This document shows positions 54,450 through 63,635 of a DNA stretch of 64,000 nucleotides, in pieces. The translations under genes were made by a program, and so were the position numbers. Each line of letters opens with the position of its first letter. Position 1 is the stretch's first letter. The notes under the pieces were generated by a model. That model saw only the letters and a program-made list of their open reading frames with translations, had not been told where the DNA came from and made no database searches. This DNA comes from Escherichia phage vB_EcoM_LMP25, in sequence record MK482688.1; one strand, given 5' to 3'.

Positions 54450-62474
<8,025 letters not shown>

Positions 62475-62475
<1 letters not shown>

Positions 62476-62714
62476 TACATTTTTCCTGCTCTTCTAAGTT
62501 CGTTGTAAGCAATTTCCTCTTTATACGACCTCTGAATCTCAAGAAATTGTCTCAATGATAATAAATCAGAGAATGTCATAGCAAAGAGTTGGTCAAGTGT
62601 TTCTTTACACCCTTCCATACCATAAATAGCAAGCACAAATTTCATCTCGTCTGCTTCTTCATAGGTTGCCTCTACAGCAGCATCAGTCAGTGGTGTCTGT
62701 AGAGTGTTACCCAT
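62475..62714 (-). CDS. tail assembly chaperone, -1 frame extension ORF
   Basis: 79 aa ORF in -1 frame relative to upstream chaperone; frame open upstream across the slippery site. Confidence 0.55.
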
Positions 62715-62716
62715 GT

Positions 62717-63115
62717 TTACTGAGAAGTTAGGCTTTTGAAAATGCTTGCTTCGAAAAAACTTCCGAAGTTTGCCTCCAGCGCAAATGCTAAGTAATCAAT
62801 AAATTCACCATAGTTTGCTTGGAAGTATGTATCAATATTAAGTGGGAAGTCATCAACAGTTGCCCCTTGAAATAACAGGGTAGCCATTTCTTCAAGGTTA
62901 ATTTCTTCAATTCTGTCAAAACAAGCTTCAACAAGTTCTTTAAATGGAACCATTGGAGCTTCTTTCTTACCCTTGTCAGTCAGACTTGACAGCATCTGTG
63001 CAAAAGTTGGAACAACAATTTTACCCAACTTCATAGACATCTTAATACCATCTCTTGCCCCAAGCAGAACGATATTTACTTTCTTACCATTAATTACTCT
63101 AGATTCTGTTTTCAT
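62717..63115 (-). CDS. tail assembly chaperone
   Basis: 132 aa ORF between tube and tape measure; slippery heptamer near 3' end. Confidence 0.55.
   Translation of the reverse strand: MKTESRVINGKKVNIVLLGARDGIKMSMKLGKIVVPTFAQMLSSLTDKGKKEAPMVPFKELVEACFDRIEEINLEEMATLLFQGATVDDFPLNIDTYFQANYGEFIDYLAFALEANFGSFFEASIFKSLTSQ
62753..62759 (-). other. candidate -1 programmed ribosomal frameshift site (T TTT TTC)
   Basis: Heptamer in zero-frame register X XXY YYZ, 34 nt before chaperone stop; -1 frame open into 62475..62714. Confidence 0.5.
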
Positions 63116-63147
63116 TGTGATTCCTTAATACTTTTAAAAGAAACAAA

Positions 63148-63180
63148 AAAGGGGAAGACCTTTTAAAGTCTCCCCCTTAT
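63148..63180 (-). terminator. rho-independent terminator after tail tube gene
   Basis: On - strand GGGGGAGAC-tttaaaa-GGTCTTCCCC followed by TTTTTTGTTTCTTTT. Confidence 0.5.
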
Positions 63181-63188
63181 AGGATTTA

Positions 63189-63635
63189 TTAAACACTTGA
63201 CGCTGGAATTGTAGAAGTGTAGTCTAGCTTCTCACAACCAAAAATCCAAGTTTTAGAGTTCTGGTCACGACCAAGTTCAATCTGTGGTAATTCCTGCAAC
63301 CAAGCATTAATACCAGTTGCCAGAACAGAGCCTGATGGGTCGTAGATTACGAAGTTAGAAGAGATATCTTCTTCAAGTTCCATATTGTCTTGTTTAGCTT
63401 GAATTGCAGAAAGCATCTGGTTAGAGAGAGAAGTCTGCATTAACTCAATCTCAATAGTACCTGTCTTGTCTGCATTTCTTGTCAGAGCAACCTGACCACC
63501 TGCACCAACAACTGGTGTCACAAGTGGTGATGTTCTCTGTAGACGCAAGAATGAGTCTGGAGCAAAGCCTTCAATAGCAATGCCGTTCCAGCTACATACA
63601 ACGTCTTTAGGGGAATATTGCTGATACATAGCCAT
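63189..63635 (-). CDS. tail tube protein (putative)
   Basis: 148 aa, between sheath-like partial ORF and chaperones. Confidence 0.45.
   Translation of the reverse strand: MAMYQQYSPKDVVCSWNGIAIEGFAPDSFLRLQRTSPLVTPVVGAGGQVALTRNADKTGTIEIELMQTSLSNQMLSAIQAKQDNMELEEDISSNFVIYDPSGSVLATGINAWLQELPQIELGRDQNSKTWIFGCEKLDYTSTIPASSV

What the first reader, a model, noticed from the sequence alone, without database searches (positions are those of the whole stretch)
62475..63115. Candidate -1 programmed frameshift in the tail assembly chaperone
The heptamer T TTT TTC (62753-62759, - strand) sits in exact zero-frame register 34 nt before the stop of the 132-aa ORF. The -1 frame is open from there into the 79-aa ORF, so a fusion product is predicted. 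This is the conserved G/GT-type arrangement and supports the tape-measure assignment.
Basis: partly seen in the sequence, partly recalled or inferred. Interest (0 to 1): 0.45.

Follow-up and report, generated by a model that had tools for sequence, protein, structure and literature searches.

The report
Known tail-chaperone frameshift site, FelixO1-like phage
The window comes from a FelixO1-like coliphage, and the flagged T_TTT_TTC site is the ordinary, already annotated -1 frameshift that makes a longer version of the tail assembly chaperone just upstream of the tape measure gene.

Summary
On the minus strand, T_TTT_TTC (62759-62753) sits in zero-frame register (AGT TTT TTC) 34 nt before the stop of the 132-aa ORF. 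The -1 frame runs from there through the 79-aa ORF to a TAA that overlaps the tape measure ATG. The predicted fusion is 213 aa.

The window is a Felixounavirus, 100% identical to Escherichia phage vB_EcoM_LMP34. The 132-aa protein is a Pfam Phage_TAC_15 tail assembly chaperone. It lies between the tail tube gene and a 742-aa tape measure gene.

Comparative evidence is strong:
- The heptamer is in register inside the 0/-1 overlap in all 15 loci examined, spanning nine lineages and down to 27% protein identity.
- Third-codon-position identity peaks at 0.98 on the site, against about 0.45 elsewhere.
- The downstream ORF has no conserved start codon and no Shine-Dalgarno sequence.

No stimulatory RNA structure follows the site.

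It is not new. RefSeq records of phages Mushroom, Moogle and Mordin/Michonne already carry the joined CDS. My predicted fusions match their deposited proteins exactly, and three genome announcements state the frameshift. No experimental test was found in the searchable literature.

Verdict: real, ordinary, already known. Interest is low.

The parts
62717..63115 (-). Gene G: tail assembly chaperone, 132 aa, the product of standard zero-frame decoding
   Evidence: ORF. Pfam Phage_TAC_15 E=1.7e-19, 71 bits against cut-off 22. phrog_1613 'tail assembly chaperone' E=2.9e-48. SD-like TAAGGA lies upstream of the ATG.
62753..62759 (-). Slippery heptamer T_TTT_TTC in zero-frame register (AGT TTT TTC = Ser119 Phe120 Phe121)
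   Evidence: Read directly. It is the only in-register heptamer in the 0/-1 overlap and the only in-register TTTTTTC in 16,848 codon positions of the window. It is conserved in 15 of 15 loci.
62475..62753 (-). The -1 frame extension (T part): 92 codons plus TAA. C62753 is read twice. Predicted GT fusion = join(63115..62753, 62753..62475), 213 aa
   Evidence: The analogous fusions built for Mushroom, Mordin/Michonne and Moogle equal the deposited proteins YP_009600435.1, YP_009177317.1 and YP_009145710.1 exactly.
62475..62714 (-). The 79-aa ORF as mechanically called and as annotated separately in most records. It is the C-terminal 79 residues of the T part
   Evidence: phrog_4963 'tail assembly chaperone' E=2.8e-55. 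There is no SD-like sequence upstream of its ATG, and the start codon is not conserved in other genera.
62730..62770 (-). 41-nt island of nucleotide conservation spanning the heptamer and 23 nt downstream (the dual-coding stretch)
   Evidence: It is the only segment of the 641-nt query that blastn still aligns to the Erwinia phiEa21-4-like records, at 92.7%. It matches 294 phage records, all at 90% identity or more and 201 of them at 99% or more. Third-codon-position identity among six Ounavirinae lineages is 0.98 here against about 0.45 background.
60247..62475 (-). Tape measure protein gene, 742 aa. Its ATG overlaps the TAA of the -1 frame (TAATG)
   Evidence: Pfam TMP_3 E=2e-17 and phrog_4036 E=0. 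SD-like AGGA upstream. The -1 stop ends at the TMP start.
63189..63635 (-). Tail tube-like virion structural protein, 148 aa, immediately upstream of G
   Evidence: Pfam KPP10_Orf10 E=3.2e-07 and phrog_280 E=1.2e-47. Related records annotate it as a structural or DUF3277 protein following the tail sheath gene.
63149..63178 (-). Intrinsic terminator between the tube gene and G (context, not part of the shift signal)
   Evidence: 13-bp stem, 6 G-C pairs, followed by a T-run. A terminator is annotated at the same place in the Mordin record and in the KhF2 and KhF3 records.
62660..62715 (-). Distal conserved hairpin inside the T coding region, starting 38 nt 3' of the heptamer. Its outer stem includes the ATG of the 79-aa ORF. 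Role unknown
   Evidence: z = -3.35 in the window, -2.0 in Mordin and -5.5 in SUSP1. RNAalifold gives -17.9 kcal/mol with 4 of 18 pairs showing compensatory change. 94% of cells are paired, against 31-47% when the partners are slid. It is absent in six other lineages.

Best explanation
This is the G/GT tail assembly chaperone gene pair of a FelixO1-like myovirus. Most ribosomes translate the 132-aa chaperone G and stop at TAA 62719-62717. A small fraction slip back one base on U_UUU_UUC, with P-site tRNA-Phe moving from UUU to UUU and A-site tRNA-Phe from UUC to UUU. They continue in the -1 frame through 92 more codons and stop at the TAA that overlaps the tape measure ATG, giving a 213-aa GT protein (121 + 92 residues, junction ...ANFGSFF|RSKHFQKPNF...). 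By analogy with lambda, the G parts would coat the tape measure protein and the T part would recruit the tube protein; neither would remain in the virion. What is shown here: the anatomy, the family assignments, the conservation of the site, its register and the open -1 frame, and the lack of an independent start for the second ORF. What is inferred: that the shift is ribosomal, that it is inefficient, and what G and GT do. The site appears to work without a nearby 3' RNA stimulator.
For: Anatomy and register. Chaperone and tape measure assignments. The heptamer is T_TTT_TTC (T_TTT_TTT in Alteromonas phage PT11-V22). It is the only in-register heptamer in the 0/-1 overlap in all 15 loci, which cover Felixounavirus, Mooglevirus, Suspvirus, Yersinia phage P778, Kolesnikvirus, Hafnia phage SarahDanielle, Myoalterovirus, Certrevirus and Vequintavirus (G identity down to 27-31% in tblastn). 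It lies 117-125 residues into G in every case. The -1 frame ends on the first base of the tape measure ATG, or 4-6 nt before it, in all 12 Ounavirinae loci and in PT11-V22. A -1-frame motif R-x-K/R-x-F-Q/R-K-P directly follows the shift site, recurs in FV3 (HTRRFRKP) and partly in phiTE (RQERFRDH), and lies upstream of any start codon. The first in-frame start of the second ORF is not conserved: +165 nt in Kolesnikvirus, +180 nt in PT11-V22, +189 nt in phiTE, and only a TTG in Yersinia P778. Only one of the listed candidate starts, a later internal ATG in Hafnia phage SarahDanielle (AGGTGA), has an SD-like match longer than 4 nt, whereas the G and tape measure starts have SD-like sequences in almost every lineage. 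Third-position identity peaks at 0.98 on the site, and the 41-nt island is at least 90% identical in 294 records. Given the window's codon usage (TTT 0.62 of Phe; T-ending Ser codons 0.53), xxT TTT TTY would be expected in about a third of lineages if the choice were neutral, yet it is found in all nine. U_UU.U_UU.C is shift-prone in E. coli above 0.1% without any stimulator and is used by IS elements (PMC4066793). Curated joined CDSs exist in Mushroom, Mordin and Moogle, and their proteins equal my predicted fusions. The frameshift is stated in print for Moogle, Michonne and Mijalis.
Against: No protein-level evidence was found for any FelixO1-like phage. The Felix O1 genome and proteome paper mentions neither a chaperone nor a frameshift. 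Taken alone, the single-genome occurrence is only P of about 0.04-0.09. No 3' stimulatory structure exists within 50 nt in any lineage (z about 0 in eight of nine lineages), so efficiency may be very low. The product of an extra U inserted by RNA polymerase on the T6 run would be identical, so sequence analysis cannot separate the two mechanisms. In Felixounavirus and Suspvirus an ATG lies 2 nt after the G stop, so some free T made by reinitiation cannot be excluded.
Confidence: 0.85

Rival explanations
1. The same GT protein is made by transcriptional slippage. RNA polymerase inserts one extra U while copying the T6 run, and ribosomes then read the edited mRNA normally into the T frame.
For: The site is a homopolymeric T6 run (T7 in PT11-V22). 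A weak hairpin, CUGGAG-gcaaa-CUUCGG at -5.2 kcal/mol, ends 3 nt before the run and was flagged as terminator-like. Hairpin-assisted slippage is a known mechanism (PMC5009743). The protein product would be indistinguishable from the ribosomal one.
Against: From general knowledge, not tested here: appreciable slippage by E. coli RNA polymerase needs runs of about 8-9 A or T, and six is short. 14 of 15 loci keep C rather than T at the seventh position, although T would lengthen the run and is synonymous. The upstream hairpin is weak and is not conserved in Kolesnikvirus, Hafnia phage or FV3. The motif is a canonical, experimentally shift-prone ribosomal heptamer kept in exact register.
Confidence: 0.07
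2. There is no recoding. The 79-aa ORF is an independent small gene translated from its own ATG (62714), for example by termination-reinitiation 2 nt after the G stop, and the heptamer is incidental.
For: An ATG lies 2 nt after TAA in Felixounavirus and Suspvirus. Most GenBank records annotate two separate genes. The single-genome chance of a heptamer in the overlap is not negligible.
Against: The start codon is not conserved. Kolesnikvirus, PT11-V22 and phiTE have no in-frame start for 165-189 nt, although the -1-frame protein aligns from the heptamer onward. The ATG has no SD-like sequence. The 13 -1-frame codons upstream of the ATG are conserved at protein level. The heptamer is conserved in all nine lineages at synonymous positions.
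Confidence: 0.05
3. The -1 shift takes place not on the heptamer but on the in-register tetramer U_UUC (ATT TTC, 62741-62738) 12 nt downstream, giving ...SFFEASIF|QKPNF...
For: U_UU.C is the second most shift-prone tetramer in E. coli (PMC4066793). It lies inside the conserved 41-nt island and recurs in phiTE as GGT TTC.
Against: [quoted passage not shown] FV3 has GGT TTA there and PT11-V22 has no equivalent. The -1-frame residues between the two sites (R-x-K/R-x) are conserved in distant lineages, which implies that stretch is translated in the -1 frame.
Confidence: 0.03

Closest known systems
Annotated tape measure chaperone frameshift of FelixO1-like phages: Salmonella phage Mushroom (YP_009600435.1) and Citrobacter phages Moogle, Michonne/Mordin and Mijalis
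   Same: Same genes, same heptamer and same junction. The Mushroom locus is 97.8% identical over the 641 nt and carries a joined CDS over the equivalent span. Fusions built by slipping on T_TTT_TTC reproduce the deposited proteins exactly. The frameshift is stated in PMC4319497, PMC4591319 and PMC5543628.
   Different: The window's own fusion differs from Mushroom's at 2 residues and is not in the protein collection. The 100%-identical record LMP34 lists both ORFs as hypothetical proteins.
Bacteriophage lambda G/GT (Levin 1993; Xu, Hendrix and Duda 2004, 2013, 2014, as summarised in PMC5009743)
   Same: The gene order is tube/major tail gene, then G, then T in the -1 frame, then tape measure. 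There is a slippery heptamer near the 3' end of G, a longer fusion is made at low level, and neither product is expected in virions.
   Different: The lambda heptamer is G_GGA_AAG (from memory) and relies on tRNA-Lys; here it is U_UUU_UUC with tRNA-Phe in both sites. Lambda is a siphovirus, whereas this is a contractile-tail phage with sheath and tube. G here belongs to a different Pfam chaperone family (Phage_TAC_15). The efficiency and the G:GT ratio are unknown here.
P2 E/E+E' frameshift in a myovirus tail operon
   Same: A contractile-tail phage with a -1 frameshift in the chaperone upstream of the tape measure gene. From memory, the P2 site is also a T-rich run (T_TTT_TTG).
   Different: No detectable sequence relationship was tested or claimed here. 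P2-type efficiency is reported as 2-3 fold higher than lambda's (PMC5009743); here it is unmeasured.
Stimulated bacterial -1 frameshifting (dnaX, IS911/IS3: upstream SD-like element plus downstream hairpin or pseudoknot)
   Same: A heptamer of the X_XXY_YYZ class. In the window a GGAGG lies 13 nt upstream of the heptamer.
   Different: There is no downstream hairpin or pseudoknot at 5-9 nt. The GGAGG is not conserved: GGAGA in mistaenkt, GGAAG in Yersinia P778, and absent in Kolesnikvirus, Hafnia phage and phiTE.

Membership tests
G/GT-type tail assembly chaperone with conserved programmed -1 frameshift (Xu, Hendrix and Duda 2004) | The gene pair lies between the major tail/tube gene and the tape measure gene | tested here: met
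   The order on the minus strand is sheath (cut by the window end), tube-like 148 aa, G 132 aa, T ORF, tape measure 742 aa. Related records show the same order.
G/GT-type tail assembly chaperone with conserved programmed -1 frameshift (Xu, Hendrix and Duda 2004) | The second ORF overlaps the 3' end of the first in the -1 frame and lacks its own conserved start and ribosome binding site | tested here: met
   The overlap is 79 nt. The start codon is not conserved across genera, and only a later internal ATG in Hafnia phage SarahDanielle has an SD-like match longer than 4 nt.
G/GT-type tail assembly chaperone with conserved programmed -1 frameshift (Xu, Hendrix and Duda 2004) | A slippery sequence in zero-frame register inside the overlap | tested here: met
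   T_TTT_TTC at 62759-62753. This motif is experimentally shift-prone in E. coli (PMC4066793).
G/GT-type tail assembly chaperone with conserved programmed -1 frameshift (Xu, Hendrix and Duda 2004) | The arrangement is conserved in relatives despite sequence divergence | tested here: met
   15 of 15 loci in nine lineages. Synonymous-site conservation peaks at 0.98 on the site. 294 records keep the 41-nt island at 90% identity or more.
G/GT-type tail assembly chaperone with conserved programmed -1 frameshift (Xu, Hendrix and Duda 2004) | The first ORF is homologous to a recognised tail assembly chaperone family | tested here: met
   Pfam PF21822 Phage_TAC_15, 71 bits against cut-off 22; phrog_1613. 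No solved structure is related by sequence.
G/GT-type tail assembly chaperone with conserved programmed -1 frameshift (Xu, Hendrix and Duda 2004) | A fusion protein is actually produced at a low, fixed ratio to G and is required for tail assembly | not testable with these tools
   No experimental report for FelixO1-like phages was found in the held literature.
G/GT-type tail assembly chaperone with conserved programmed -1 frameshift (Xu, Hendrix and Duda 2004) | G binds the tape measure protein, the T domain binds the tube protein, and both are absent from virions | not testable with these tools
   Inferred from lambda only (PMC5009743).
Stimulator-dependent bacterial -1 frameshifting (dnaX / IS3 / IS911 type) | A stable hairpin or pseudoknot starting about 5-9 nt 3' of the heptamer | tested here: not met
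   The 53 nt after the site fold at -3.4 kcal/mol with z = +1.0. There is no consensus structure. z is about 0 in eight of nine lineages, and the one exception (PT11-V22, z = -2.2) starts 22 nt away.
Stimulator-dependent bacterial -1 frameshifting (dnaX / IS3 / IS911 type) | A conserved SD-like element about 10-14 nt 5' of the heptamer | tested here: inconclusive
   GGAGG lies 13 nt upstream in Felixounavirus, Mooglevirus, SUSP1 and FV3, but it is degraded or absent in mistaenkt, Yersinia P778, Kolesnikvirus, Hafnia phage, PT11-V22 and phiTE. It also encodes a conserved Leu-Glu.

The most novel reading that the evidence does not exclude
In Felixounavirus, Mooglevirus and Suspvirus, the covarying hairpin 38-93 nt downstream of the heptamer (62715-62660) is a functional tuning element. 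It could mask the in-frame AUG so that free T cannot be made. Alternatively it could pause a leading ribosome so that a queued trailing ribosome sits on the heptamer, a collision-assisted frameshift that would set the G:GT ratio without a classical adjacent stimulator.
Probability: 0.1. Interest if true: 0.4.

Novelty: already known. Interest (0 to 1): 0.12.

Why it matters
It matters little beyond annotation quality. The site confirms the chaperone and tape measure assignments. It also shows that most Felixounavirus records, including the one identical to this window, should carry a joined GT CDS rather than two 'hypothetical' genes. Two modest extensions follow. First, the same U_UUU_UUC heptamer is kept at the same position of the chaperone in Vequintavirinae, Certrevirus and an Alteromonas myovirus, where the three reference records examined (FV3, phiTE, PT11-V22) list separate ORFs. 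Second, the site seems to work without an adjacent RNA stimulator. Neither would surprise a specialist.

Tried and rejected
1. Downstream stimulatory structure. Folding of the 53 and 93 nt after the site, RNAalifold over six genera and z-scores in nine lineages found nothing adjacent to the site. Only a distal hairpin appeared.
2. Rfam scan of 62300-63300 at E<=1 gave only two sub-threshold chance hits.
3. Protein search with the 213-aa fusion returned only 124-136-aa G proteins and no fused entries. The exact-sequence look-up answered the junction question instead.
4. PDB sequence search with the fusion found no meaningful relative.
tblastn with the Alteromonas G added no new lineage worth fetching.
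6. Literature searches for experimental proof in FelixO1-like or rV5-like phages found none. Xu et al. 2004 is not in the held library, so I could not check whether Felix O1 was in their original table.
7. The upstream hairpin as a transcriptional-slippage aid is weak and not conserved.
8. The +1 frame closes after 6 codons.

Full report
**Identity of the window.** The 1-kb region around the finding is 100% identical to Escherichia phage vB_EcoM_LMP34. It is 95% or more identical to about 210 other records, which are named as Escherichia, Salmonella and Shigella phages; the close relatives I inspected are classified in Felixounavirus, subfamily Ounavirinae. All genes discussed are on the minus strand.

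**Checking the observation.** The minus strand reads ...GCA AAC TTC GGA AGT TTT TTC GAA GCA AGC ATT TTC AAA AGC CTA ACT TCT CAG TAA AC ATG GGT....
- The 132-aa ORF is 63115-62717 and the 79-aa ORF is 62714-62475.
- T_TTT_TTC occupies 62759-62753 in X_XXY_YYZ register and ends 34 nt before the TAA.
- After a -1 slip the frame reads CGA AGC AAG CAT TTT CAA AAG CCT AAC TTC TCA GTA AAC ATG..., which enters the 79-aa ORF. It ends at TAA 62477-62475, whose last A is the first base of the tape measure ATG.
- The -1 frame is open from 62795. The +1 frame closes after 6 codons.
- The predicted fusion is 213 aa, made of 121 zero-frame and 92 -1-frame residues.

Every coordinate and number in the finding is therefore correct.

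**Chance.** In 65 non-overlapping long ORFs of the window (16,848 codon positions) there are 63 in-register XXXYYYZ heptamers. The probability of at least one in the 24 codons of the overlap is 0.086, or 0.035 for the motifs found shift-prone in E. coli. This is the only in-register TTTTTTC in the window.

**What the genes are.**
- The 132-aa protein matches Pfam Phage_TAC_15 (71 bits, cut-off 22) and PHROG tail assembly chaperone families.
- The 79-aa ORF matches phrog_4963, also labelled tail assembly chaperone.
- The 742-aa protein downstream is a tape measure protein (TMP_3; phrog_4036, E=0).
- The 148-aa protein upstream is the tube-like structural protein.
- Further downstream lie a Dit-like protein, a Pam3 gp18-like plug, a baseplate hub and a spike-type protein.
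- A strong intrinsic terminator separates the tube gene from G.

**Comparative test.** I fetched 14 related loci and analysed them with one script. They cover Mushroom; Mordin, Moogle, Sf17 and HP1 (Mooglevirus); SUSP1 and mistaenkt (Suspvirus); Yersinia phage P778; phiEa21-4 and SPARTY (Kolesnikvirus); Hafnia phage SarahDanielle; Alteromonas phage PT11-V22; Pectobacterium phage phiTE (Certrevirus); and FV3 (Vequintavirus). G identity to the window falls to 27-31% in tblastn.
- In all 15 loci, counting the window, the only in-register heptamer inside the 0/-1 overlap is T_TTT_TTC (T_TTT_TTT in PT11-V22). It lies 117-125 residues into G.
- In the 12 Ounavirinae loci and PT11-V22 the -1 frame ends on the first base of the tape measure ATG or 4-6 nt before it.
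- The fusion proteins align from end to end. A -1-frame motif R-x-K/R-x-F-Q/R-K-P directly follows the junction, recurs in FV3 and partly in phiTE, and lies upstream of any start codon.
- The first in-frame start codon of the second ORF is not conserved: +39 nt in Felixounavirus, +54 in Mooglevirus, a TTG in Yersinia P778, +165 in Kolesnikvirus, +180 in PT11-V22 and +189 in phiTE. Apart from one later internal ATG in Hafnia phage SarahDanielle, no candidate start has an SD-like match longer than 4 nt.
- By contrast, the G and tape measure starts carry SD-like sequences in almost every lineage.

**Nucleotide-level selection.**
- blastn aligns the Erwinia phiEa21-4-like records to the 641-nt query only over 41 nt, at 92.7%. 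Those 41 nt are window 62770-62730, spanning the heptamer and the 23 nt after it.
- In a codon alignment of six Ounavirinae lineages, third-position identity to the window is 0.98 for codons 118-126, against roughly 0.25-0.6 elsewhere.
- The 41-mer matches 294 phage records at 90% identity or more, 201 of them at 99% or more.
- With the window's codon usage (Phe TTT 0.62; T-ending Ser codons 0.53; Cys TGT 0.72), a neutral lineage would show xxT TTT TTY only about a third to a half of the time. All nine lineages show it.
- The conservation just 3' of the heptamer is most simply explained by dual coding, since both EASIFK(S/N)L and RSKHFQKP are conserved.

**Stimulators.**
- The 53 nt after the site fold at -3.4 kcal/mol (z = +1.0).
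- RNAalifold over six genera finds no downstream helix.
- The first 50 nt downstream have z about 0 in eight of nine lineages.
- A GGAGG lies 13 nt upstream in several genera but is not conserved.
- A weak hairpin (-5.2 kcal/mol) ends 3 nt before the U-run. It is what the terminator scan flagged, and it is not conserved either.
- U_UU.U_UU.C is among the heptamers that frameshift above 0.1% in E. coli without any stimulator. It belongs to the efficient H_HH.U_UU.Y class and is used by IS elements (PMC4066793).

The site therefore most likely acts alone at low efficiency, as expected for a G/GT system in which GT is needed in small amounts (PMC5009743).

**Prior knowledge.** The RefSeq records of Salmonella phage Mushroom (same genus, 97.8% identical here), Citrobacter phage Mordin and Citrobacter phage Moogle carry a two-piece joined CDS named 'tail assembly chaperone' over exactly this span. 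I built fusions for these phages by slipping on T_TTT_TTC. An exact-sequence look-up found them identical to the deposited proteins YP_009600435.1, YP_009177317.1 and YP_009145710.1, so the annotators chose the same junction. [quoted passage not shown] 2004.

Most other records list two separate genes, including the one identical to this window. The window's own fusion sequence is not in the protein collection. I found no experimental demonstration for this phage group.

**Rivals.**
- Transcriptional slippage on the T6 run would give the same protein and cannot be excluded from sequence. The run is short, however, and 14 of 15 loci keep C at position 7 where a synonymous T would lengthen it.
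- Independent translation of the 79-aa ORF is contradicted by the non-conserved start and by conserved -1-frame coding upstream of it. Some reinitiation in Felixounavirus remains possible.
- A shift on the downstream in-register U_UUC tetramer (62741-62738) is unlikely without a stimulator, and it is disfavoured by the conserved -1-frame residues between the two sites.

**Side observation.** A hairpin at 62715-62660 starts 38 nt after the heptamer, and its outer stem contains the ATG of the 79-aa ORF.
- It is conserved in Felixounavirus, Mooglevirus and Suspvirus with compensatory changes: 4 of 18 pairs change on both sides, 94% of cells are paired against 31-47% when the partners are slid, and z reaches -5.5.
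- It is absent in the six more distant lineages.
- It is too far from the site to be a classical stimulator.
- Its role is unknown, and only three independent lineages support it.

**Verdict.** The feature is the standard, already annotated chaperone frameshift of FelixO1-like phages, so novelty is 'already known' and interest is low.

Noticed in passing
window 62660-62715 (- strand): A hairpin inside the T coding region starts 38 nt 3' of the heptamer. Its outer stem (CAUGGGU/ACCUAUG) contains the ATG of the 79-aa ORF. It is conserved with compensatory changes in Felixounavirus, Mooglevirus and Suspvirus and absent in more distant relatives. Its function is unknown.
   Followed up: partly
window 63149-63178 (- strand): A strong intrinsic terminator (13-bp stem plus T-run) lies between the tail tube gene and the chaperone gene. 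It would lower transcription of G, GT and the tape measure gene relative to sheath and tube. It is annotated as a terminator in the Mordin, KhF2 and KhF3 records.
   Followed up: partly
window 62763-62779 (- strand): A weak hairpin, CUGGAG-gcaaa-CUUCGG (-5.2 kcal/mol), ends 3 nt before the U6 run and gives a terminator-like pattern inside the gene. It is not conserved outside close genera. It is relevant only to the transcriptional-slippage alternative.
   Followed up: yes
L017 (FV3) 1327-1333; L016 (phiTE) 1348-1354; L015 (PT11-V22) 1357-1363: The same T_TTT_TTC/T heptamer sits in register at the equivalent position of the chaperone in Vequintavirus, Certrevirus and Myoalterovirus. Their RefSeq records list the downstream frame as separate 'hypothetical protein' ORFs, so these are probably unannotated GT frameshifts.
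   Followed up: partly
window 62475-63115; GenBank records: Annotation is inconsistent. Most Felixounavirus records list G and T as two hypothetical proteins. Some name them 'head closure protein' (C600M2, SUT_S820/S920, VpaE1_ev78) or 'tape-measure protein' (BPSELC-1).
   Followed up: no
records MG065664.1, OK283618.1 and WP_252560994.1: Records named 'Campylobacter phage A132' (98.8% identical to this region) and 'Listeria phage LPML1', and a 'Staphylococcus hyicus' protein, carry Ounavirinae chaperone sequence. These are likely mislabelled hosts or contamination.
   Followed up: no
window 62473-62477 (- strand): The stop of the -1 (T) frame and the tape measure start overlap as TAATG, whereas the G stop lies 240 nt upstream. 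Only the rare frameshifted ribosomes terminate at the tape measure start, which also has its own SD-like AGGA.
   Followed up: no
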